This document shows positions 23,786 to 61,203 of a stretch of 64,000 nucleotides of DNA, in pieces. The notes beneath the pieces were generated by a model. The model was not told where the DNA came from, did not search any database, and was given only the letters and a program-made list of their open reading frames with translations. The stretch comes from an uncultured Candidatus Saccharibacteria bacterium. Lineage in GTDB: Bacteria > Patescibacteriota > Minisyncoccia > JBAYJV01. A program made the position numbers and the translations under genes. The stretch is taken from the NCBI GenBank assembly GCA_964577395.1, contig CAZNYQ010000013.1, positions 6,409 through 70,408 on the forward strand, written 5' to 3'. Each line of letters starts with the position of its first letter. Position 1 is the first letter of the stretch.

Positions 23786-23860
23786 TGGGCATACCTGGAC
23801 TTGAACCAGGGACCTCGACTTTATAAGAGTCGCGCTCTGACCAACTGAGCTATATGCCCC
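23786..23860 (-). tRNA. tRNA, Ile-like body with anticodon UAU (tRNA-Ile(UAU) candidate)
   Basis: Reverse complement GGGGCATATAGCTCAGTTGGTCAGAGCGCGACTCTTATAAAGTCGAGGTCCCTGGTTCAAGTCCAGGTATGCCCA. Anticodon stem CGACT/AGTCG, loop CTTATAA, anticodon TAT. The body resembles tRNA-Ile. Confidence 0.7.
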
Positions 23861-52623: not shown

Positions 52624-55600
52624 ATGTTTTTAAAATTAAAAAAATTTAAGTTTAATAAACAATGGTTGCCTTTCATTGCTTTAATATTGTCCTTTATATT
52701 TTTAATTTTTCCTAGAGGAGCTGCTCATGCAGGAGCAGGGGGATGGTTTGCTAGTCTTTTTTTAAGTCTATTAGGATTAATCCTGTATGTGCTAGCGGTG
52801 GCTTCTACTTTTATTCTTGGTATTGGTAGTAAGCTGTTGTCTTTTGTTATGACAACAACCTTTAATGAAGATCTTTTTATTGAAGCGCCTTTTGTTAAAG
52901 TAGCTTGGTCATTTACACGAGATTTCGCCAATTTATTTTTTATTCTTTGGCTTGTCATTATTGCCTTAGCTACAATTGTAGATGTAAAAGGTTATAGCGC
53001 TAAAAAATTATTGGTAAAACTTATTGTAGTAGCTTTATTAGTAAATTTCAGTTTAGTTTTGTGCTGTTTCATGCTAGATATTGCTCAAGGTGCGATGGGG
53101 TTCTTAACGCAATCAGTAATTGTAATTAAAGGAGAACCATTTTCACTGGCTGATGGACTATCTTATTCCTTTCGCCAGTCAGAACTTTTTGGTGCTCATC
53201 TGCCGTCAGGATCAAGCTTCTTTTTAGGAAATTTAGATTCCAGCATATCTACTGTAATGCATAATTTATTAGTGCTTGCTTTTTCTCTTATAGCAGCTTA
53301 TGTTTTTTTAATTTTATCAATTATGCTATTAGTTAGAGTTGTGGCGTTGTGGTTATTACTTATATTTGCTCCCTTAGCATGGACTTTCGGTATCATGCCT
53401 TTTGCTAAAAAAGCCTGGACAGAATGGATTAGTAAATTTTTTCAATGGGCATTCTACGGAGTAATAGTAGCTTTTTTAATGTATCTAGCTGCTATGGCAG
53501 TTTGGGCAATCCAAGAAGCTGAAGGATGGAGCGATAATTTAAATCAAGGAAGCGAGATGATGGGTAGTTTTGGTACGCAGGTTTCTTTTATAGAAAATTT
53601 TACCAGCATTTTAAGTTTTATAGTTGTAATTGTTCTTTTGCTAATGGCAAAAGGTGTTGGTATGTCAGCTGCTAAAAGCGGAGGAGATATGGTTACGAAT
53701 ATGGTGGCAGGTTATGTAGGAGGAAAAGCAGCCACTTGGGGGAAGAAACCAGTTCGCTATGCTAAAGATAAAGCACGAGATGTTAAGACAAGAACCAAAG
53801 GTGCTGTTGGTCGGAGCGTAATGCATGGGGGTGATATTCCGATTATAGGAAAAACAGTTAGAAGAGCAGGCACAAAATGGGCACTAGAAGATAAGCAGGA
53901 TAGATCACAGAAAGTGGGGAGATTTAGCGATTATTCTCAATTAAGCGATCAAGAACTTAAAGATATTAGCTCGAATATGGTAGGGCAAAAAGCTCAACAA
54001 GAAGAAATTGCTCAAGTTGCAAAATTAATGACTGATAGAAATCTTGTATATAATATAAGCGATGAAAAAGAGCTTAAGACGCTTCTTGATTCCCTGAAAA
54101 AGTTTGGAAATGATAGTGATGTTAAGAAATTTGAAGAAAAAAGACCAGATGCTATTCAAGCCAAAGGTCTTACGGTTCATGATATTATCGAAAGGCAACG
54201 CACGGGCCAGCCACTAGGAAGCGTTACGCTTCAAGAGGCTCGTCAATTACAAGAAAGAAGGCAAGAAGCTATTCAAAGAGCAATTAAAAATAACGAAGCT
54301 CAAAATTGGACGGAAGACTTTATCAGGAATAGTCTCTCTTCTGATCTTGTTGATGTTTTTGCGCAAGATAAAAATGGCGTAAAAATGATTAGTAAAGCAG
54401 CCGAAGATTGGGGCAGTGGAGTCAAAGAGTCTTTCTTAGAAAAAGTGATGGCGAATTTCTCAGATGATTTTGACGGAAATGATGCGGAAAGGAATTTAGC
54501 TGCTCGTAATTTTTATGGAAAATTAGGAGGGAATTATTATAAAGCTTATCATAGCGACGAGAAGGGCCGAATTGTTACTGATCCTAATTTTGTCAATAAC
54601 AATGTAAGGCAGACAGAGCTATTAGAAGCAATAGCAAAAATTAGCAGTACGAAAGATTGGGAAAAATTAGATGATAGTGACGAAAATCTTAAGCTTATCG
54701 CTCGACACATACAAAGTTCTCAAATCAACAATGCTGGACGTAATTTAGATAGCTATACTAAAGCTAAAATATATGATGAATTAAGGAAACAACGTCATGA
54801 TTCTTCTCTTGACCCAAGCGAACAAAAAGATCGCACAGAAGTTTATAAAACAATGACGTACAACGATACTTGGCCCGGCTCAATTACTGGAGATAGACTT
54901 GAGAAATTAAGAAAGCGCAAAGAAGAACGAGATAAGGAAAAGAAAGAAATGGATAAAATGCACGGAGAAGCTCTGCAAATGAACAAAGAATATGACAAGG
55001 AGCAACAAGAAAAACAACAAAAAGAAAGGGAAGAAATGAATAAGCTGCATGGAGAGGCAATAGAAGAAGACAGGTTGCGCGGAAAAGAGAAGGAAGCAAA
55101 AACAATAGAAGAAAGAGACAAAAAACAAAGAGAAGAAAAAGAAAAGGAGCGCCTAGAATTAGAAAAACAACGATTAGAGATGGAAAAGGAAAGACTTGAA
55201 ATGGAAAAGAAGAGATACAACAAAAAAGATAATGAGAAGGACAACGATGATGGTGATAACAATGGAGGGTTTTCTCAAAAAAAACCAACTCCTCCTCCTA
55301 GCACAGATTCAGGAGGAACGCAACGAACTCAATCGTCTGACAACAAACAGGATTATAATATTCGCGCTGATAGTGTTAATATTCAACCAAAAAGCACTCT
55401 TGACAACGGAAACACAAAAAATGTTAATTTAAATCAAAAAAATATCTCAATTAGCGAAGGAGAAAATGCTCCAAACCAAACAGTTGACCTAAGAGGAGAA
55501 AAAAAATCTCGCATAATAACACCAGAACCTCGTGGACATATTAAATTTTCCGAAGGTTCTGGGTGGACACCTCAACAGAAAAAAGATTTTGAAGAAAAGA

Positions 55601-56085
55601 GACAGCGCAAACATCAAGAAGCAATGGCTAAAAAACGAAAAACTAAATTAGGTAGCCAGAGCTTAAATAGGTTTAACGCTGGAGGGGTAAGCAATAATTC
55701 TCCCGAGCAAGCTTATCTACAAGGACAATACACTAGTCCCAAGGTATTAGGAGATAGCAAAACTATTCATATTGATGAAATCCCAGAGAAAAGTAAAATA
55801 TCTCAAGAAGGAGAGCAGAACATAACGGATAATAACTTAATGGAAATTACGCGTGTTCAGGCTCAGAGTGGTAAAATAAAAGAAGCAGTTAAGGGAGCTA
55901 AAAAAATACAAGATAGTGAGAAAAGAGGATATGCTTTATGGAATATTGCTGCCACTCAAGCGCAAAAGGGTAATTTTTCCGAGGCTCTTCGTATAGCACG
56001 TCAAATCGATCATGATAAAATCCGTAATTTAGCGATAAATGATTTAGAGTATTCGAAAGAAAGGGCACCGGAATCATATAGTTAA
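52624..56085 (+). CDS. VirB6/TrbL-like polytopic membrane protein with ~750-aa charged coiled-coil/low-complexity C-terminal extension (T4SS-like locus component)
   Basis: Signal/TM followed by ~8 TM helices in the first 350 aa, so a VirB6-like topology rather than sequence identity. The tail is K/E/R/D/Q-rich, with heptad-like runs KEKERLELEKQRLEMEKERLEMEKKRY, and ends in a Ser/Thr/Asn-rich region. Confidence 0.45.
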   Translation: MFLKLKKFKFNKQWLPFIALILSFIFLIFPRGAAHAGAGGWFASLFLSLLGLILYVLAVASTFILGIGSKLLSFVMTTTFNEDLFIEAPFVKVAWSFTRDFANLFFILWLVIIALATIVDVKGYSAKKLLVKLIVVALLVNFSLVLCCFMLDIAQGAMGFLTQSVIVIKGEPFSLADGLSYSFRQSELFGAHLPSGSSFFLGNLDSSISTVMHNLLVLAFSLIAAYVFLILSIMLLVRVVALWLLLIFAPLAWTFGIMPFAKKAWTEWISKFFQWAFYGVIVAFLMYLAAMAVWAIQEAEGWSDNLNQGSEMMGSFGTQVSFIENFTSILSFIVVIVLLLMAKGVGMSAAKSGGDMVTNMVAGYVGGKAATWGKKPVRYAKDKARDVKTRTKGAVGRSVMHGGDIPIIGKTVRRAGTKWALEDKQDRSQKVGRFSDYSQLSDQELKDISSNMVGQKAQQEEIAQVAKLMTDRNLVYNISDEKELKTLLDSLKKFGNDSDVKKFEEKRPDAIQAKGLTVHDIIERQRTGQPLGSVTLQEARQLQERRQEAIQRAIKNNEAQNWTEDFIRNSLSSDLVDVFAQDKNGVKMISKAAEDWGSGVKESFLEKVMANFSDDFDGNDAERNLAARNFYGKLGGNYYKAYHSDEKGRIVTDPNFVNNNVRQTELLEAIAKISSTKDWEKLDDSDENLKLIARHIQSSQINNAGRNLDSYTKAKIYDELRKQRHDSSLDPSEQKDRTEVYKTMTYNDTWPGSITGDRLEKLRKRKEERDKEKKEMDKMHGEALQMNKEYDKEQQEKQQKEREEMNKLHGEAIEEDRLRGKEKEAKTIEERDKKQREEKEKERLELEKQRLEMEKERLEMEKKRYNKKDNEKDNDDGDNNGGFSQKKPTPPPSTDSGGTQRTQSSDNKQDYNIRADSVNIQPKSTLDNGNTKNVNLNQKNISISEGENAPNQTVDLRGEKKSRIITPEPRGHIKFSEGSGWTPQQKKDFEEKRQRKHQEAMAKKRKTKLGSQSLNRFNAGGVSNNSPEQAYLQGQYTSPKVLGDSKTIHIDEIPEKSKISQEGEQNITDNNLMEITRVQAQSGKIKEAVKGAKKIQDSEKRGYALWNIAATQAQKGNFSEALRIARQIDHDKIRNLAINDLEYSKERAPESYS

Positions 56086-56113: not shown

Positions 56114-56977
56114 ATGCATCAGCAATTTGATGAAAAATTTGAACAGTTACCTCCGTATATTAAAGAATGGATGGCCGAAGAATCACCTCATCTAAATGAA
56201 GAGGTTGCAAAAGAGCACAATTTGAGTCTAGAAGAGGTTGAGAAAATGAAGAAAATTGTTGTTCATACAATACTGGGATTTTTTAATTTAAATGATTTTT
56301 TGTCTCATTTAAAAGATAGTTTTCCCAAACTTACAGAAGAAGAAATCAAAAAATTAGCTCTTGACATTGTTATTAAACGTTTCTATCCAATCAGAGACTA
56401 TCTTAAGGACGTTGATGGTCTCATTAAAAATTTAGGAGGTTCGTTGCCTGAGAATAAAGAGTTTTATAAAAAAGAATTTGAAGAAAAAAATCCACAAATT
56501 GTTGTCACCCAAGAGGAGAAAAAATCATCTCAAGGTAGTCAAGACATTGTTTATATAGGAATTGGTAGTTTGCTCAATAAACAAGAGATTAAAGATCAAT
56601 TTATTACCTCTAAAAAGATAACTGTAAACGATTCAGGAGAAGAAGTAGGTGGCACATTAAATAACTGGATAGCTGATTATAAAAGAGAGAAGGGAGAACC
56701 TCCACATTCAAGTTTAGAACGTCAAGTATATCTTTCGCAAGCTATGAATCCTAAAAAATTAGATAATTCAGAACGAATTATTCTAGGAGAAATTTTAAAA
56801 GCTTACGATCAAGGGACGGAACTACCCATTTCAAAAGAAAGTAGTAAAATTATTTTGAGTGAAGTTTTTCATAAAGGTAACCTTACACAGAAGATAGGCT
56901 TTCAAAATAATAAAGATGAAAACAGAGTAGAAAAGGACAATAAGCCAAATTCTACAATTGATTTACGTAATTCTTAA
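56114..56977 (+). CDS. hypothetical soluble protein in T4SS-like locus
   Basis: 287 aa, acidic and lysine-rich, no TM and no recognisable motif. It is tightly packed between the VirB6-like and PrgI-like genes. Confidence 0.4.
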   Translation: MHQQFDEKFEQLPPYIKEWMAEESPHLNEEVAKEHNLSLEEVEKMKKIVVHTILGFFNLNDFLSHLKDSFPKLTEEEIKKLALDIVIKRFYPIRDYLKDVDGLIKNLGGSLPENKEFYKKEFEEKNPQIVVTQEEKKSSQGSQDIVYIGIGSLLNKQEIKDQFITSKKITVNDSGEEVGGTLNNWIADYKREKGEPPHSSLERQVYLSQAMNPKKLDNSERIILGEILKAYDQGTELPISKESSKIILSEVFHKGNLTQKIGFQNNKDENRVEKDNKPNSTIDLRNS

Positions 56978-56980
56978 ACT

Positions 56981-57391
56981 ATGAGATATCAATTACCTCA
57001 ATTTATTGAAATGGAAGATAAGCTTATAGGACCGCTTACATTAAGGCAGTTCTTATATTTAATTGCTGTGCCGATAATTTGTTATCTTCTGCATTTTTTT
57101 GTTCGCTTGCCGTATGTTATCATGGTAGGAGTTATATTTTTTCCCATAGCTTTATTGCTTGCTTTTTATAGAATTAACGGTAGACCTTTTACTCATGCTT
57201 TTTTGGGATTGTTAAGATTCGTTAAGAAACCTCAAATGTATGTTTGGGAGAGGAGCATGCATAGAGTAAGTCAAGAAGAAGGTGTAGAAAAAACAACTGA
57301 CGATGAAAAGCAAAAAAATTCTGTGGAAAATAAGAAAAAGAAGAAAGACTTTAAAAAATTAGCCCAAGCCCTTGATCAAGGTAATACTTAA
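56981..57391 (+). CDS. PrgI-family / VirB3-like small membrane protein
   Basis: MRYQLPQFIEMEDKLIGPLTLRQFLYLIAVPIICYLL... followed by a second TM helix. This matches the PrgI pattern of Gram-positive T4SS, and it is encoded immediately before the VirB4 genes, as PrgI is before PrgJ. Confidence 0.5.
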   Translation: MRYQLPQFIEMEDKLIGPLTLRQFLYLIAVPIICYLLHFFVRLPYVIMVGVIFFPIALLLAFYRINGRPFTHAFLGLLRFVKKPQMYVWERSMHRVSQEEGVEKTTDDEKQKNSVENKKKKKDFKKLAQALDQGNT

Positions 57392-57411: not shown

Positions 57412-58062
57412 ATGGCTTTTAATCCATCACAAAAACTTGTTCCCATCAAAGAAATACGAGAAGGAGTTGTCATTTTGAAAAGCGGTGCCTTAAGGGCAGT
57501 GCTTTTAGTGTCGAGCATTAATTTTTCTCTTAAGTCCAATGAAGAACAGGAGGCAATCATTGCAAAATTTCAAGGATTTCTTAACTCTCTTGATTATCCT
57601 ATTCAGACAATTATTCAATCCCGTAAACTTAAAATAGATAAATATCTAGCCAGTATAAAAGAATTAGAAAAATCTCAAGAGAACGAACTTTTACGGGTTC
57701 AAACGTCTGAATATCATAATTTTATTAAAGAGCTTGTTGCTTCAGCCAATATTATGAATAAGAGCTTCTATGTTGTTATTTCTTACTCCCTAGGAGAAGG
57801 TTCTCAAAAGAAGGGTTTTCTCGGTATGGTTAAAGATGTTGCAGGTAGCTCTAGTCAAGTTAGTCAAAAACGTTTTAAACAACTTAAAGCTCAATTGTGG
57901 CAAAGAGTTGATCATGCAGCTGCTAGCTTATCAAGCATGGGAATTAGAGTGGTCCCTCTTAATACGCAAGAATTAATCGAACTTTATTATGAGCTCTATA
58001 ATCCGGGAGCTGACAATAAAAGAGATTTATCAGCGCCCGAAGAGATGGGGTTAAAAAATTAA
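57412..58062 (+). CDS. VirB4/TrbE/ConE-family N-terminal domain encoded as a separate ORF (split VirB4)
   Basis: LVPIKEIREGVVILKSGALRAVLLVSSINFSLKSNEEQEAIIAKFQGFLNSL resembles the characteristic VirB4 N-terminus. The ORF ends 5 nt before the ATPase ORF, which is in a different frame. Confidence 0.55.
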   Translation: MAFNPSQKLVPIKEIREGVVILKSGALRAVLLVSSINFSLKSNEEQEAIIAKFQGFLNSLDYPIQTIIQSRKLKIDKYLASIKELEKSQENELLRVQTSEYHNFIKELVASANIMNKSFYVVISYSLGEGSQKKGFLGMVKDVAGSSSQVSQKRFKQLKAQLWQRVDHAAASLSSMGIRVVPLNTQELIELYYELYNPGADNKRDLSAPEEMGLKN

Positions 58063-58067
58063 TTTTT

Positions 58068-60071
58068 ATGTCAGATCAATCTAAAAAACAAAAAGCATCA
58101 GTCCATAGTCAAGAAGATAATAACCATAATTCAGATAAAAAATTTATAGTTATTGAAACTATGCCTAAGGACCTAAAGGATGAAAAACAGGATACGACTA
58201 GTAAGAATAAGAATAACAAGAGGCAAGTCAACCATAAAGAAATTATTAAAAAAATTAAAAATACTAACAAGAAAAAGAAGCAAAAAAAAGGTTTTCTTAA
58301 TAATCTCTTAGGTGGAGGCAAGGAAAAAACATCTTATGAGAAAGGAGTTGCTACCTTAAAAGACTTATTAGCACCTTCAGCTCTTAAAATAGAATCTCAA
58401 TATCTTCAACTAGGCGATAAATACTTAAGGACTATTTTTGTCTTAAATTATCCTAGATATCTTCATAGTGCGTGGCTATCTTCCATTATTAATTTAGATA
58501 GAGTTTTTGATATTTCTATTTTTGTTCACCCAGTTGAAAGCTCAACTATCTTAAAAAATCTTCAAAAGAAACTAGCTCGTGTTCAAGCTCAAATTACAGA
58601 TCGAGAAGAACAGGGAAGAGTTCGTGACCCGAAGCTCGAAACTGCCTATAACGATATTGAAGATTTAAGAGATCGTTTGCAAACTGGACAAGAGAAGTTC
58701 TTTCAGGCAGGTGTATATTTAACAATTTACGCAGACAGCTTAAAAGACCTGGATGAGGGGGTTGCCGAGATTAGGAATATTTTAGAATCTCAATTAATCT
58801 ATGCTAAACCTGCTCTGTTTATCCAAGAAGACGGTCTTCATTCAACTTTTCCTTATGCTCAGGACAAACTTCAAGTTTTAACGAGCATGAATACGCAACC
58901 CTTATCGACTATTTTTCCTTTCGTTTCCTCGGATCTTAGCTCTAATAAAGGTATTCTATATGGGGTAAATAGGCATAATAATAGTTTAATTCTTTTTGAT
59001 AGATTTAATTTAGAAAATGCCAATATGGTAATTTTTGGAGTATCAGGAGCTGGTAAAAGTTACGCTGTTAAACTAGAGGTTCTTAGGCAGCTTATGACAG
59101 GGACTGATGTATTAATTATTGACCCCGAAAATGAATATCAGTATTTAGCAGAAGCAGTTGGAGGTACTTTTGTTAAAATATCATTAAGTTCACCATACCA
59201 TATTAATCCCTTTGACGTGCCCGAACCGGCTGAAAATGAAGATCTGGGTAGCATCCTAAGATCGCATTTTGGCACTATCACAGGTATGTTAAAAATGCTT
59301 TTAGGTAATTTATCAGCAGAAGAAGAGGCTATTTTAGATAAAGCAGTAATAGAAACATATGCTTCTAGAGATATTACCCCTGACAATGATTTTATGAAAA
59401 AAGATATCACGCCTCCTAAAATGCAGGACTTGCAAGAAGTTTTAGAAGGCATGGAGGGAGCTAAAAGCTTAGCGATTAAGCTGGAAAAATATACAAAAGG
59501 TACTTTCTCTGAATTTTTAAATAATTATACTAATATTGATATTAAAAAAGGATTAATGGTTTTTAATATTCGAGATGTGGAGGAGGAATTAAGGCCAGTA
59601 GCGATGTATGTAATTTTAAATTATATTTGGCGTTTAGTGCGGTCTAAATTAAAAAAGAGACTTTTAATAGTTGATGAAGCTTGGTGGATGATGCGTCATA
59701 AAGCAGGTGCGGAGTTTTTGTTTAGTATGGCTAAAAGAGCCCGTAAATATTATTTAGGATTAACAACTATTACTCAAGACGTAGCCGATTTTGCTAACTC
59801 AGAATATGGTAAACCAATTATAACCAACTCATCTCTTCAATTGCTCTTAAAACAATCTCCTGCCACTATTCAGGAAGTAGCTCGCATTTTTAACCTAACT
59901 CAAGAAGAAAAATATTTATTGCTAGAAGGAGAAGTAGGCGAAGGTCTTTTTTTCGCAGGACTTAAACATGTTGCTATTAAAATAGTAGCTTCTTACAGTG
60001 AGGATCAAGTAATTACCTCTGACCCAAAGCAACTTTTAGAGATTGAAGAAGCTAAGAAAAAACTTGGTTAA
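58068..60071 (+). CDS. VirB4/TrbE/ConE-family type IV secretion ATPase (central and C-terminal ATPase domains), with Lys/Asn-rich N-terminal linker
   Basis: Central region YLRTIFVLNYPRYLHSAWLSSIINLD is like the VirB4 middle domain. Walker A is FGVSGAGKSY and Walker B is LLIVDEAWWMM; DEAW is characteristic of VirB4. Confidence 0.8.
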   Translation: MSDQSKKQKASVHSQEDNNHNSDKKFIVIETMPKDLKDEKQDTTSKNKNNKRQVNHKEIIKKIKNTNKKKKQKKGFLNNLLGGGKEKTSYEKGVATLKDLLAPSALKIESQYLQLGDKYLRTIFVLNYPRYLHSAWLSSIINLDRVFDISIFVHPVESSTILKNLQKKLARVQAQITDREEQGRVRDPKLETAYNDIEDLRDRLQTGQEKFFQAGVYLTIYADSLKDLDEGVAEIRNILESQLIYAKPALFIQEDGLHSTFPYAQDKLQVLTSMNTQPLSTIFPFVSSDLSSNKGILYGVNRHNNSLILFDRFNLENANMVIFGVSGAGKSYAVKLEVLRQLMTGTDVLIIDPENEYQYLAEAVGGTFVKISLSSPYHINPFDVPEPAENEDLGSILRSHFGTITGMLKMLLGNLSAEEEAILDKAVIETYASRDITPDNDFMKKDITPPKMQDLQEVLEGMEGAKSLAIKLEKYTKGTFSEFLNNYTNIDIKKGLMVFNIRDVEEELRPVAMYVILNYIWRLVRSKLKKRLLIVDEAWWMMRHKAGAEFLFSMAKRARKYYLGLTTITQDVADFANSEYGKPIITNSSLQLLLKQSPATIQEVARIFNLTQEEKYLLLEGEVGEGLFFAGLKHVAIKIVASYSEDQVITSDPKQLLEIEEAKKKLG

Positions 60072-60090: not shown

Positions 60091-60414
60091 ATGAGTGTTA
60101 ACTCTCAAGGGCAATCAGCAGAGAATGAATATATAAGAAAAAGCAGATTAGATAGAGTTAGGCGCATAGCTATGAACAAAAAAGCTAAAAAGGAAGCAAT
60201 GCGTCAAGGAGCCAAAGAAAAACTTAAAAAACAAGCTAAGAAGAAAGCTGCCTCAGTAGCCTTAAAAAAGATTTTTATTGCGATTGCGCCTTACTTGTTC
60301 ATACTGATTATTGCTTTTATTGCTTTTGCTGGTTTGATATATTATGTTTGTGAGGGCGGAGGTCTTGTAGCGTCAATTCTACGTCTTACGTCCCTTGGTA
60401 ATGTATGTCCTTGA
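60091..60414 (+). CDS. hypothetical small bitopic membrane protein with Lys-rich N-terminus (T4SS-like locus)
   Basis: 107 aa with one TM helix (IFIAIAPYLFILIIAFIAFAGLIYYV). No recognisable motif. Confidence 0.4.
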   Translation: MSVNSQGQSAENEYIRKSRLDRVRRIAMNKKAKKEAMRQGAKEKLKKQAKKKAASVALKKIFIAIAPYLFILIIAFIAFAGLIYYVCEGGGLVASILRLTSLGNVCP

Positions 60415-60429
60415 TTATATATATAAAAT

Positions 60430-61203
60430 ATGTTTAATTTTTTGAAAATTCAAAGATTAGCTATACTTACTTTAGTTTTTTTAATAATTTCTTTTTCCTT
60501 TTCTACCATTTTTATTGCTCTAGCTGGAGATAGTTCAGCTGGGCCTGGTGAGTTTGATGAAAAGGAAAGAGAGCCCTTTGAATACAAATTGATGGTTCCT
60601 CTGCCCACAGCAAGCGGAACTGTGGCAACAACAACAGGCATTGTTGATTATATCAAAACTCTTTATCTTTTTGGCATGGGTATTGCAGGCATCCTTGCGA
60701 TGGCAATGATTATTGTTGGAGGTTTTCAATGGATGGGTGGAGGTAGTATTACATCAACAAGAGCTGCTAAATCTCGAGTTTCCAATGCTGTTCTAGGTCT
60801 AGTTTTATTATTAGCAGCTTATTTAATCTTAAACACTATAAATCCTGCCTTAGTTAATTTAAAAGAACCCTATATTTATTTTATAGAGTGGTACAGAGAT
60901 TTCCCTGATGATGGGAATACTGGAACAGGTGGAACAGGTGGAGGAGGTGGATCAGATCCATGTGATGATATGGATTCTTGTTCTGAGTATAATTTTTATA
61001 TTGATTGCGTGAATGATATTTGTTCGTTAGGATGTACTATCAGTGAATGTGATATTTTAGATAGTAGTGATACATTTGGATGTGTTCAGAAAAACATTAC
61101 TAGTTGTAGTGATTATATGTTTTCAATATCTTGCCAGACTGATCCTTGTGGTGTTGGCGGGTGTAGTTATGATACTAACACAAAAACTTGTGCTAATAAT
61201 TAA
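60430..61203 (+). CDS. VirB2/TrbC-like two-helix 'pilin-like' membrane protein with Cys-rich C-terminal domain
   Basis: Signal peptide ending at a candidate ALA|GDS cleavage site. Two hydrophobic helices (LYLFGMGIAGILAMAMIIVGGF and AVLGLVLLLAAYLILNTI) separated by a short basic loop, which is the T4SS pilin topology. Then a Gly-rich linker TGTGGTGGGGGS and a ~90-aa domain with 14 Cys. Confidence 0.4.
   Translation: MFNFLKIQRLAILTLVFLIISFSFSTIFIALAGDSSAGPGEFDEKEREPFEYKLMVPLPTASGTVATTTGIVDYIKTLYLFGMGIAGILAMAMIIVGGFQWMGGGSITSTRAAKSRVSNAVLGLVLLLAAYLILNTINPALVNLKEPYIYFIEWYRDFPDDGNTGTGGTGGGGGSDPCDDMDSCSEYNFYIDCVNDICSLGCTISECDILDSSDTFGCVQKNITSCSDYMFSISCQTDPCGVGGCSYDTNTKTCANN

What the first reader, a model, noticed from the sequence alone, without database searches (positions are those of the whole stretch)
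57412..60071. VirB4-family ATPase split into two ORFs joined by a Lys/Asn-rich low-complexity linker
The canonical VirB4 N-terminal domain is a separate 216-aa ORF. It ends 5 nt before a 667-aa ORF in a different frame, and that ORF begins with ~90 aa of K/N/Q-rich low-complexity sequence before the conserved middle and ATPase domains. This is either a genuine domain fission, which would affect how VirB3/VirB4 assemble, or a frameshift. A frameshift could be real (a pseudogene) or a sequencing error.
Basis: seen in the sequence. Interest (0 to 1): 0.55.

Follow-up and report, generated by a model that had tools for sequence, protein, structure and literature searches.

The report
Two-gene VirB4 ATPase (TrsD-like plus ATPase)
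The "split" secretion-system ATPase is a real two-gene arrangement (a TrsD-like N-terminal piece plus a shortened VirB4 ATPase) that is conserved across ultra-small Patescibacteria and some Gram-positive plasmids and is already in the literature, so it is neither a frameshift nor a new discovery.

Summary
ORF1 is 57412..58062 (216 aa). A 5-nt gap follows, then ORF2 at 58068..60071 (667 aa) in another frame. ORF2's first ~95 residues are K/N/Q-rich and predicted to be disordered.

It is not a frameshift, pseudogene or read error. The same 216-aa protein was assembled on 12 contigs from at least 3 metagenomes. Of 116 non-redundant related loci, 115 are split, with spacers of very different length and all three relative frames. 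ORF1 homologues (>4,000) are stand-alone proteins of 210-247 aa, and ORF2 homologues are 587-676 aa.

ORF1 and ORF2 map without overlap onto a naturally fused 851-910 aa form in a Berkelbacteria-like clade. That fused clade is nested among split forms, so the fusion is secondary. ORF2 starts where residue ~223 of a full-length enterococcal VirB4 lies. Staphylococcal TrsD/TrsE and Geobacillus and Clostridium plasmids have the same layout.

This TrsD-plus-VirB4 pairing in Patescibacteria was published in 2025 (PMC12102498). Two points go modestly beyond that paper: the collinearity evidence that TrsD is the detached N-terminal module of VirB4, and a subclade-specific tail with a conserved FxVIETMP motif ahead of the low-complexity stretch.

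Verdict: already known, low interest.

The parts
52624..56085 (+). VirB6/TrbL-like polytopic membrane protein (1153 aa) with a long charged C-terminal region
   Evidence: Precomputed Pfam hit PF19590 TrbL_3 on the identical gene in L001. My own Pfam scan found nothing.
56114..56977 (+). 287-aa protein of unknown family inside the T4SS cluster
   Evidence: No Pfam hit. The same gene is present in all three copies of the locus.
56981..57391 (+). PrgI / VirB3-like small membrane protein (136 aa)
   Evidence: PF12666 PrgI, E 3.6e-8, 34.3 bits against a cutoff of 27. A PrgI gene lies directly upstream of the TrsD-like gene in related loci.
57412..58062 (+). ORF1: TrsD-like / 'TraC-like' protein (216 aa), the detached N-terminal module of VirB4
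   Evidence: NCBIfam hits to the N-terminal region of VirB4 models and to the TrsD/TraD family. PF26593 TraC-like. More than 4,000 homologues, and the top 120 are all stand-alone proteins of 210-247 aa. Aligns to positions 5-219 of the fused-clade profile at E 3.5e-56. The top 14 Foldseek PDB hits are all R388 TrwK/VirB4.
58053..58070 (+). Junction: A6 run, stop TAA (58060-62), TTTTT spacer, ORF2 ATG (58068-70)
   Evidence: ORF2's frame is open from 58020, so a -1 slip would be possible on paper. The junction is not conserved in relatives.
58068..60071 (+). ORF2: VirB4-family ATPase lacking the first ~220 residues of full-length VirB4 (667 aa)
   Evidence: NF045971 conju_CD1110, 382 bits against a cutoff of 325, model positions 104-733. 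PF19044, PF12846, PF01935 and PF03135. PDB 4AG5 VirB4 C-terminal domain at E 2e-43. Foldseek to TrwK at E 4e-23 over ~565 columns. Residue 96 aligns to residue 223 of the pTEF2 VirB4.
58068..58352 (+). Subclade-specific disordered K/N/Q-rich N-terminal tail of ORF2 (residues 1-95)
   Evidence: Composition and shuffle test. pLDDT <50 for residues 1-103. Only the 12 closest homologues have an 85-105 aa tail; the median in the family is 31 aa.
58143..58166 (+). Conserved FIVIETMP motif (ORF2 residues 26-33) within the tail
   Evidence: F[ILMV]VIETMP is present in all 12 subclade proteins and in no other of the 360 proteins fetched. Third-codon-position differences with a conserved peptide are visible in the DNA of relatives.
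59037..59060 (+). Walker A motif GVSGAGKS (residues 324-331)
   Evidence: G327, G329, K330 and S331 are invariant in 49 homologues.
59661..59678 (+). Walker B motif LLIVDE (residues 532-537)
   Evidence: D536 and E537 are invariant.
60091..60414 (+). 107-aa basic protein with one hydrophobic segment, part of the cluster
   Evidence: translation. No significant family hit.
60430..61203 (+). T4SS pilin-like (VirB2-like) protein with a Gly-rich linker and a Cys-rich C-terminal extension (257 aa)
   Evidence: PF18895 T4SS_pilin, E 8.7e-7, 29.4 bits against a cutoff of 26.6.

Best explanation
This is the chromosomal type IV secretion system of a Patescibacteria (CPR) bacterium. In it, the VirB4 motor ATPase is encoded as two separate, co-transcribed genes. 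ORF1 is a TrsD-like / 'TraC-like' protein that corresponds to the first ~200-220 residues of a full-length VirB4. ORF2 carries the rest of the N-terminal domain plus the Walker A/B ATPase domain. Three things are shown here. The split is ancient and conserved. The two pieces are exactly collinear and non-overlapping with a naturally fused homologue. ORF2 lacks any copy of the ORF1 module. One step is inferred: the two proteins assemble in trans to rebuild the VirB4 N-terminal domain, which in solved systems holds VirB3 and anchors the hexameric motor at the membrane. Here the PrgI/VirB3 gene lies immediately upstream. The 5-nt spacing suggests coupled translation, giving roughly 1:1 output. 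The K/N/Q-rich stretch is a disordered N-terminal tail of ORF2 that exists only in a small subclade. It has a conserved FxVIETMP motif at its tip, and I speculate that this motif is a docking element.
For: 1. The split is reproducible. The exact 216-aa ORF1 occurs on 12 contigs from at least 3 JGI samples, each followed by the same 667-aa ORF2.
2. The split is conserved. Of 116 non-redundant related loci from metagenomes and GTDB genomes, 115 are split. The distance from the ORF1 stop to the conserved ATPase core ranges from 50 to 1456 nt, and the relative frames are 45/39/31.
3. Homologue lengths fit two genes. The top 120 ORF1 homologues are 210-247 aa and the top 120 ORF2 homologues are 587-676 aa.
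4. The pieces are complementary. The ORF1 profile aligns to positions 5-219 of the fused-clade profile (E 3.5e-56) and the ORF2 profile to positions 291-876 (E 3e-243). The ORF1 and ORF2 profiles show no similarity to each other (E 0.42). ORF2 residue 96 equals residue 223 of the 796-aa pTEF2 VirB4 and residue ~34 of S. aureus TrsE.
5. Structure agrees. The ORF1 model's top 14 PDB hits are all TrwK/VirB4. The ORF2 model matches TrwK over ~565 columns and 4AG5 at TM 0.85 normalised to the target.
6. The same PrgI - TrsD-like - ATPase order occurs in S. aureus pV030-8 (annotated trsD), Geobacillus pGspE55-1 and C. botulinum pCBG.
7. The fused clade is monophyletic (100/100 bootstraps) and nested inside split forms. 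Its sister group was checked and is split.
8. Literature: TrsD is described as a remote homologue of the VirB4 N-terminus, as the most abundant T4SS component in Patescibacteria, as mostly adjacent to virB4, and as essential in Ca. S. epibionticum ML1 (PMC12102498).
Against: There is no direct evidence here that ORF1 and ORF2 bind each other, and a multimer prediction could not be run. The sequence link to the staphylococcal TrsD prototype is weak: NCBIfam gives 30.7 bits against a cutoff of 200, and hhalign gives E 0.0043 with probability 8%. The Foldseek support for ORF1 against TrwK is marginal (E 9e-3, TM 0.44, model pLDDT 74), and target coordinates were not returned. The ORF1 profile did not align to the N-terminus of a single enterococcal VirB4 sequence. 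Reads could not be inspected.
Confidence: 0.85

Rival explanations
1. A single virB4 gene was broken by a frameshift. This would be either a sequencing or assembly error in the A6/T5 homopolymers or a recent pseudogenisation.
For: The junction lies in homopolymer runs, and ORF2's frame is open 16 codons upstream of its ATG. A 1-nt change would therefore fuse the ORFs.
Against: Identical split proteins were recovered from at least 3 independent samples on 12 contigs. 115 of 116 related loci are split, with unrelated junctions and all three frames. ORF2 has its own ATG and a conserved N-terminal motif. Both genes are strongly conserved, and the Walker motifs are intact.
Confidence: 0.02
2. Programmed -1 ribosomal frameshifting on A_AAA_AAT (58053-58059) produces some full-length fused VirB4 alongside the separate ORF1 product.
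For: A slippery-like heptamer sits in the correct phase just before the ORF1 stop. The -1 frame is ORF2's frame, with no stop before the ATG.
Against: The feature is not conserved even in the nearest relatives (65-70% identity). Their gaps are 1, 12, 45 and 96 nt, some starts are GTG, and the frames differ. Across the family all three relative frames are about equally common. A-runs are expected by chance at 33% GC. No downstream stimulatory structure was sought.
Confidence: 0.02
3. ORF1 is an independent accessory paralogue, a duplicated VirB4 N-terminal domain with its own role, rather than the missing piece of ORF2.
For: [quoted passage not shown] TrsD homologues in Gracilibacteria are reported not to be adjacent to virB4.
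Against: ORF2 and its homologues contain no region similar to ORF1. They begin exactly where the ORF1-like module ends in full-length and fused VirB4 proteins. A whole clade carries the two pieces as one polypeptide in the same order.
Confidence: 0.08

Closest known systems
TrsD-TrsE (TraD-TraE) pair of staphylococcal pGO1/pSK41-type conjugative plasmids (MPF_FATA, pGO1 subclass)
   Same: The gene order is the same: a small membrane protein, then a ~220-aa TrsD, then a ~670-aa VirB4-like ATPase with a short gap. In pV030-8, trsD is 227 aa, the gap is 20 nt and the ATPase is 670 aa. The ATPase starts at the same boundary: ORF2 residue 99 equals TrsE residue 34. ORF1 hits the NCBIfam TrsD/TraD model end to end (residues 12-197 against positions 21-200 of 201, E 2.5e-7).
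   Different: The window's system is chromosomal and sits among housekeeping genes, not on a plasmid. Sequence similarity is very low: ORF2 is 25% identical to TrsE, and ORF1 scores 30.7 bits against a family cutoff of 200. The window's cluster also has a VirB2-like pilin. ORF2 carries an extra ~70-aa tail.
Patescibacteria T4SS as described by Quinonero-Coronel et al. 2025 (PMC12102498)
   Same: The component set matches: VirB4, TrsD, PrgI/VirB3, VirB6-like and VirB2-like pilin. TrsD is adjacent to virB4 and the location is chromosomal.
   Different: There is no essential difference; the window is one more example. The paper does not mention the Berkelbacteria-type fused form, the exact boundary complementarity, or the FxVIETMP tail of this subclade. 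I searched only the main text for these terms.
Full-length monoderm VirB4 (CD1110 family, e.g. PrgJ-like protein of E. faecalis pTEF2, 796 aa)
   Same: ORF2 residues 96-631 align to residues 223-772 (27% identity, E 9e-50). PrgI lies upstream in both.
   Different: There, the N-terminal ~220 residues are part of the same polypeptide. Here they are a separate gene.
TrwK/VirB4 of plasmid R388 (cryo-EM 7O41, 8RTB, 8RTD)
   Same: The fold matches for both pieces: ORF1 over ~190 columns and ORF2 over ~565 columns of the same chains. The ORF2-family profile position 130 aligns to TrwK residue 300.
   Different: TrwK is a single chain in a diderm system, with 12-16% identity to the window's proteins. 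From my own knowledge, and not tested here, the TrwK N-terminal domain is the part that contacts TrwM/VirB3 and the VirB8 tails.

Membership tests
VirB4/TraC-family T4SS ATPase (ORF2) | P-loop ATPase domain with Walker A and Walker B motifs, homologous to the solved VirB4 C-terminal domain | tested here: met
   GVSGAGKS at residues 324-331 and LLIVDE at 532-537. 4AG5 at E 2.2e-43. Foldseek TM 0.85 normalised to the target.
VirB4/TraC-family T4SS ATPase (ORF2) | Score above the curated cutoff of a VirB4 family model | tested here: met
   NF045971 conju_CD1110, 382.1 bits against a cutoff of 325. PF19044, 96.9 against 25.8. PF03135, 27.6 against 21.
VirB4/TraC-family T4SS ATPase (ORF2) | Complete N-terminal domain on the same polypeptide | tested here: not met
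   ORF2's folded part starts at the equivalent of residue ~223 of a 796-aa VirB4. The match to the CD1110 model starts at position 104. The missing part is ORF1.
VirB4/TraC-family T4SS ATPase (ORF2) | Genomic association with other T4SS parts (VirB3/PrgI, VirB6, pilin) | tested here: met
   PrgI at 56981..57391, TrbL_3-like at 52624..56085 and T4SS_pilin at 60430..61203.
TrsD/TraD family (NCBIfam NF041427) (ORF1) | Score above the curated family cutoff | tested here: not met
   30.7 bits against a cutoff of 200, although E is 2.5e-7 and the alignment is end to end. hhalign to S. aureus TrsD gives E 0.0043, probability 8%, 180 collinear columns. ORF1 is a remote homologue, not a member by NCBI's criterion.
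TrsD/TraD family (NCBIfam NF041427) (ORF1) | A protein of about 200-230 aa encoded immediately upstream of an N-terminally short VirB4-like ATPase and downstream of a small membrane protein | tested here: met
   The window compared with pV030-8 trsD.
Pfam PF26593 'TraC-like' (ORF1) | Significant match to the Pfam model | tested here: met
   A precomputed PF26593 hit is listed for the identical protein P0001 and for all 120 top homologues. The local Pfam copy did not report this model and gave only a sub-threshold PF11130 hit.
Patescibacteria T4SS (PMC12102498) | VirB4 with adjacent TrsD and PrgI, plus VirB6-like and VirB2-like genes, in a patescibacterial chromosome | tested here: met
   Gene content. 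The closest homologues are all Patescibacteria MAGs. Housekeeping neighbours are shown.
Programmed -1 ribosomal frameshift site | A slippery heptamer in phase that is conserved among relatives | tested here: not met
   The heptamer A_AAA_AAT is present, but the junctions of relatives differ in spacing and frame.
Programmed -1 ribosomal frameshift site | A downstream stimulatory RNA structure | not tested
   I did not pursue this after conservation failed.

The most novel reading that the evidence does not exclude
In this subclade, the ATPase subunit has acquired a ~70-aa extra N-terminal tail made of a conserved FxVIETMP strand-like motif followed by a hypervariable K/N/E-rich disordered spacer. 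Other lineages have analogous tails, such as MDRIVFRDNKGP followed by P/T-rich spacers of 80-250 aa. The tail could be a flexible tether whose tip docks by strand addition onto the TrsD-like protein or PrgI, as a non-covalent substitute for the lost peptide bond of a split VirB4. A still more exotic reading is -1 frameshifting at 58053-58059 making a fused protein. That is not strictly excluded for this genome, but I put it at about 2%.
Probability: 0.2. Interest if true: 0.4.

Novelty: already known. Interest (0 to 1): 0.2.

Why it matters
VirB4 is the one universal motor of type IV secretion systems. In Patescibacteria the T4SS, including the TrsD homologue, is reported to be essential for the epibiotic lifestyle (PMC12102498). 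Knowing that TrsD is the detached N-terminal module of VirB4, rather than an unknown accessory protein, gives a concrete and testable role to a protein for which that paper says no function has been assigned. It also warns annotators not to flag these loci as frameshifted pseudogenes or to merge the genes. For the window itself the result is reassuringly ordinary: the locus is intact and typical.

Tried and rejected
1. Sequence search of the PDB with the ORF1 profile found no VirB4, only chance hits at E >= 0.06. The link needed a fold comparison.
2. hhalign of the ORF1 profile against the single pTEF2 VirB4 sequence gave nothing at the N-terminus. The NCBIfam family models and the fused-clade profile were needed instead.
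3. pSK41 accession AF051917 is not in the plasmid collection. I used pV030-8 instead.
4. I considered the -1 frameshift idea and rejected it because the junction is not conserved.
5. P0307 and P0311 (578 and 582 aa, Berkelbacteria) at first looked like split relatives at 84% and 71% identity to the fused form. For P0307, the ORF listing on L142 showed a mis-called start inside one 868-aa ORF. P0311 was not checked.
6. The first tree script timed out. In the second, the Kimura correction gave a numerical warning, so I repeated it with Poisson distances and got the same topology.
8. A complex prediction of ORF1 plus ORF2 could not be run, because the tool takes single chains and only window or database sequences. 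The fused natural homologue served as a sequence-level surrogate.
Full report
**The observation**

The coordinates and description hold.
- ORF1 is 57412..58062 (216 aa) and ends with TAA at 58060-62.
- Five T residues follow, and ORF2 (58068..60071, 667 aa) starts in the -1 frame relative to ORF1.
- ORF2 residues 1-95 are 25% Lys, 12% Asn and 6% Gln. K+N+Q is 43%, against 16% in the rest of the protein.
- None of 20,000 shuffles of these 285 nt stayed open, so the stretch is coding.
- AlphaFold2 with a 49-sequence alignment gives pLDDT <50 and no secondary structure for residues 1-103. The folded protein begins at about residue 104.

**What the two ORFs are**

ORF2 is a VirB4-family ATPase.
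- It scores 382 bits on the NCBIfam CD1110 VirB4-like model (cutoff 325). It also matches Pfam P-loop_TraG, AAA_10, DUF87 and CagE_TrbE_VirB.
- It matches the crystal structure of the Thermoanaerobacter VirB4 C-terminal domain at E 2e-43.
- Its Walker A (GVSGAGKS, 324-331) and Walker B (LLIVDE, 532-537) motifs are intact and invariant among homologues.

ORF1 corresponds to the N-terminal end of VirB4.
- It hits the N-terminal region of two VirB4 family models (CD1110 positions 2-140; Mycoplasma VirB4 positions 104-234).
- It also hits, end to end, the NCBIfam TrsD/TraD family (E 2.5e-7, though far below the family cutoff).
- The public annotation of the identical protein carries Pfam PF26593 'TraC-like'.
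- Its AlphaFold2 model (pLDDT 74) finds R388 TrwK/VirB4 chains as its top 14 PDB matches (probability up to 0.99, E 9e-3, TM 0.44).

The neighbours complete a type IV secretion cluster.
- A PrgI/VirB3-like gene lies immediately upstream (56981..57391).
- A TrbL_3/VirB6-like gene is at 52624..56085.
- A VirB2-like pilin is at 60430..61203.

The wider window holds rsmA, groEL, pnp, ftsH and seven tRNA genes. This is therefore a chromosome, not a plasmid.

**Frameshift or real split?**

It is a real split.
- The exact 216-aa protein is on 12 contigs from at least three different metagenome samples. In the three copies of the locus shown, the same ORF2 follows.
- ORF1 has more than 4,000 homologues. 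The best 120, down to 48% identity, are all stand-alone proteins of 210-247 aa from Patescibacteria.
- The best 120 ORF2 homologues are all 587-676 aa.
- I fetched 130 related loci (50 from metagenomes, 80 from GTDB species genomes) and located both halves with tblastn. After removing redundancy, 115 of 116 loci are split.
- The distance from the ORF1-like stop to the conserved start of the ATPase core ranges from 50 to 1456 nt.
- The relative reading frames are spread 45/39/31 over the three possibilities. A broken single gene would not look like this.
- Even the closest relatives (65-70% identity) have unrelated junctions: gaps of 1, 12, 45 and 96 nt, and some GTG starts.
- This also removes the one exotic idea the junction invites. 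A_AAA_AAT just before the stop could allow a -1 slip into ORF2's frame, which is open from 58020, but nothing about it is conserved.

**Are the halves really two parts of one protein?**

Yes.
- One of the fetched loci (L053) encodes a single 871-aa protein. Residues 13-221 match ORF1 (40% identity) and residues 269-863 match ORF2 residues 73-659 (51% identity). A ~47-aa low-complexity linker lies between them.
- Searching with that protein showed it is not a one-off. At least 66 sequence clusters of 851-910 aa, named Berkelbacteria or Saccharimonadales where named at all, have PF26593 and the ATPase domains in one chain.
- Profile-profile comparison is unambiguous. The ORF1 family aligns to positions 5-219 of the fused profile (E 3.5e-56). 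The ORF2 family aligns to positions 291-876 (E 3e-243). The ORF1 and ORF2 families have no similarity to each other (E 0.42).
- So ORF1 is not a spare duplicate. It is the piece ORF2 lacks.
- The same boundary is seen against characterised proteins. ORF2 residue 96 aligns with residue 223 of the 796-aa VirB4 of E. faecalis pTEF2, and ORF2 residue 99 with residue 34 of the S. aureus TrsE-type ATPase.
- Distance trees of the ATPase region (570 columns, 100 bootstraps, two distance corrections) put the fused clade as a monophyletic group (100/100). It is nested within split Patescibacteria. Two members of its sister group were checked and are truly split.
- In those trees the Bacillota outgroups with the two-gene layout (Geobacillus, C. 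botulinum, S. aureus) branch outside Patescibacteria. So does an Embleya ATPase whose upstream gene is a different family.
- The split is therefore the older state here, and the fusion is secondary.
- One apparent 'split' Berkelbacteria protein (P0307) proved to be a mis-called start inside an 868-aa ORF.

**Is it known?**

Yes.
- S. aureus pV030-8 shows a hypothetical small protein, then trsD (227 aa), a 20-nt gap, and a 670-aa DUF87 ATPase.
- Geobacillus pGspE55-1 and C. botulinum pCBG show PrgI, then a 318- or 257-aa protein (the latter annotated 'TraC family'), then a 636- or 620-aa ATPase.
- Quinonero-Coronel et al. [quoted passage not shown]
- They find it to be the most abundant T4SS component in Patescibacteria: 2,272 homologues, 1,664 of them next to virB4.
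- They report it as essential in Ca. [quoted passage not shown]
- The window is one more instance of this arrangement.

**The 'linker'**

It does not join anything. It is the N-terminal tail of ORF2.
- Across 120 homologues, the tail before the conserved LKDLLAPSAL anchor has a median length of 31 aa. Only the 12 closest relatives (75-79% identity) have 85-105 aa.
- In those 12, the tail has three parts. First comes a strictly conserved F[ILMV]VIETMP motif near the N-terminus, found in none of the other 348 proteins fetched. Then comes a hypervariable charged/polar stretch. Last is the ancestral N-terminus, KKGFLxxLLGG...YEKGVxTLKDLLAPSALK.
- Third-position differences with a conserved peptide are visible in the relatives' DNA, so the motif is translated and under selection.
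- Other lineages with unusually long ATPase subunits (665-835 aa) show the same design with different sequences. Examples are MDRIVFRDNKGP or MDKRITL followed by 80-250 aa of Pro/Thr/Glu/Val-rich spacer.
- A short docking motif on a flexible tether is an attractive reading, but it is untested.

**Mechanism**

- Shown: two conserved adjacent genes that together equal one VirB4.
- Inferred: they assemble in trans. ORF1 would complete the N-terminal domain that, in the R388 structures, sits at the membrane face of the VirB4 hexamer with VirB3. The statement about R388 contacts comes from my knowledge of those structures and was not tested here.
- Inferred: the 5-nt spacing favours coupled translation.
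- Speculative: the tail acts as a tether.

**Verdict**

The 'frameshift' reading is refuted and the 'fission' reading is supported, but the fission is ancient, widespread, named and published. Interest is low. The collinearity evidence, the secondary-fusion clade and the subclade-specific FxVIETMP tail are small additions, not discoveries.

Noticed in passing
L010 4649-4745 and L011 3921-4010 (relatives at 67% identity): The spacer between the TrsD-like gene and the ATPase gene contains a ~95-nt tandem duplicate of the 3' end of the TrsD-like gene (...AATCCCGA..CCAGAAGAAATGGGATTTAAAGAATAT TAA repeated). This looks like a recent local duplication at the junction.
   Followed up: no
L142 2131-4737 (Candidatus Berkelbacteria GCA_001774395.1, MEZX01000002.1): The public gene call (578 aa, P0307) starts 870 nt too late. 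The ORF is a continuous 868-aa fused TrsD-VirB4, which leaves a false ~1-kb 'intergenic' gap in the annotation. P0311 (582 aa) may be the same artefact.
   Followed up: partly
L066, L075, L080, L113 (MDRIVFRDNKGP...); L088, L135 (MDKRITL...); L124: Several other patescibacterial lineages have ATPase subunits of 665-835 aa. Their N-termini carry a short conserved hydrophobic motif followed by 80-250 aa of Pro/Thr/Glu/Val-rich low-complexity sequence. This is the same design as the window's FIVIETMP + K/N-rich tail, but with unrelated sequence.
   Followed up: partly
window 52624-56085 (+): The 1153-aa VirB6/TrbL_3-like protein has a very long hydrophilic C-terminal half. It includes a highly charged K/E/R-rich repeat-like segment (...KEREEMNKLHGEA..., ...LELEKQRLEMEKERLEMEKKR...) and an Asn/Gln/Ser-rich stretch. 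It has no Pfam match in my scan.
   Followed up: no
window 60430-61203 (+): The T4SS pilin-like protein carries, after the pilin domain, a Gly-rich linker (GTGGTGGGGGS) and a ~85-aa Cys-rich C-terminal extension with 15 cysteines. That is unusual for a VirB2-like pilin.
   Followed up: no
window 23786-23859 (-): ARAGORN calls a tRNA-Ile with anticodon TAT (UAU) in a cluster with tRNA-Val(GAC) and tRNA-Arg(CCT). This is an uncommon way of reading AUA in bacteria.
   Followed up: no
L141 (Embleya sp. plasmid NZ_CP108778.1, 275765-282498): The closest plasmid-borne relative of ORF2 (36% identity) is in an actinomycete linear plasmid. There a 349-aa 'PrgI family' protein and a 165-aa 'XF1762 family' protein precede the 643-aa ATPase, in place of a TrsD-like gene.
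   Followed up: no
window 57412-58062, C-terminal tail of ORF1 (residues ~205-216): The last residues of the TrsD-like proteins carry a conserved acidic-hydrophobic motif. It reads (S/T)(A/T)PEEMGL in the subclade and E(E/K)L(D/E/N)L in more distant homologues. It lies beyond the folded core (pLDDT <50) and could be a partner-binding peptide.
   Followed up: no
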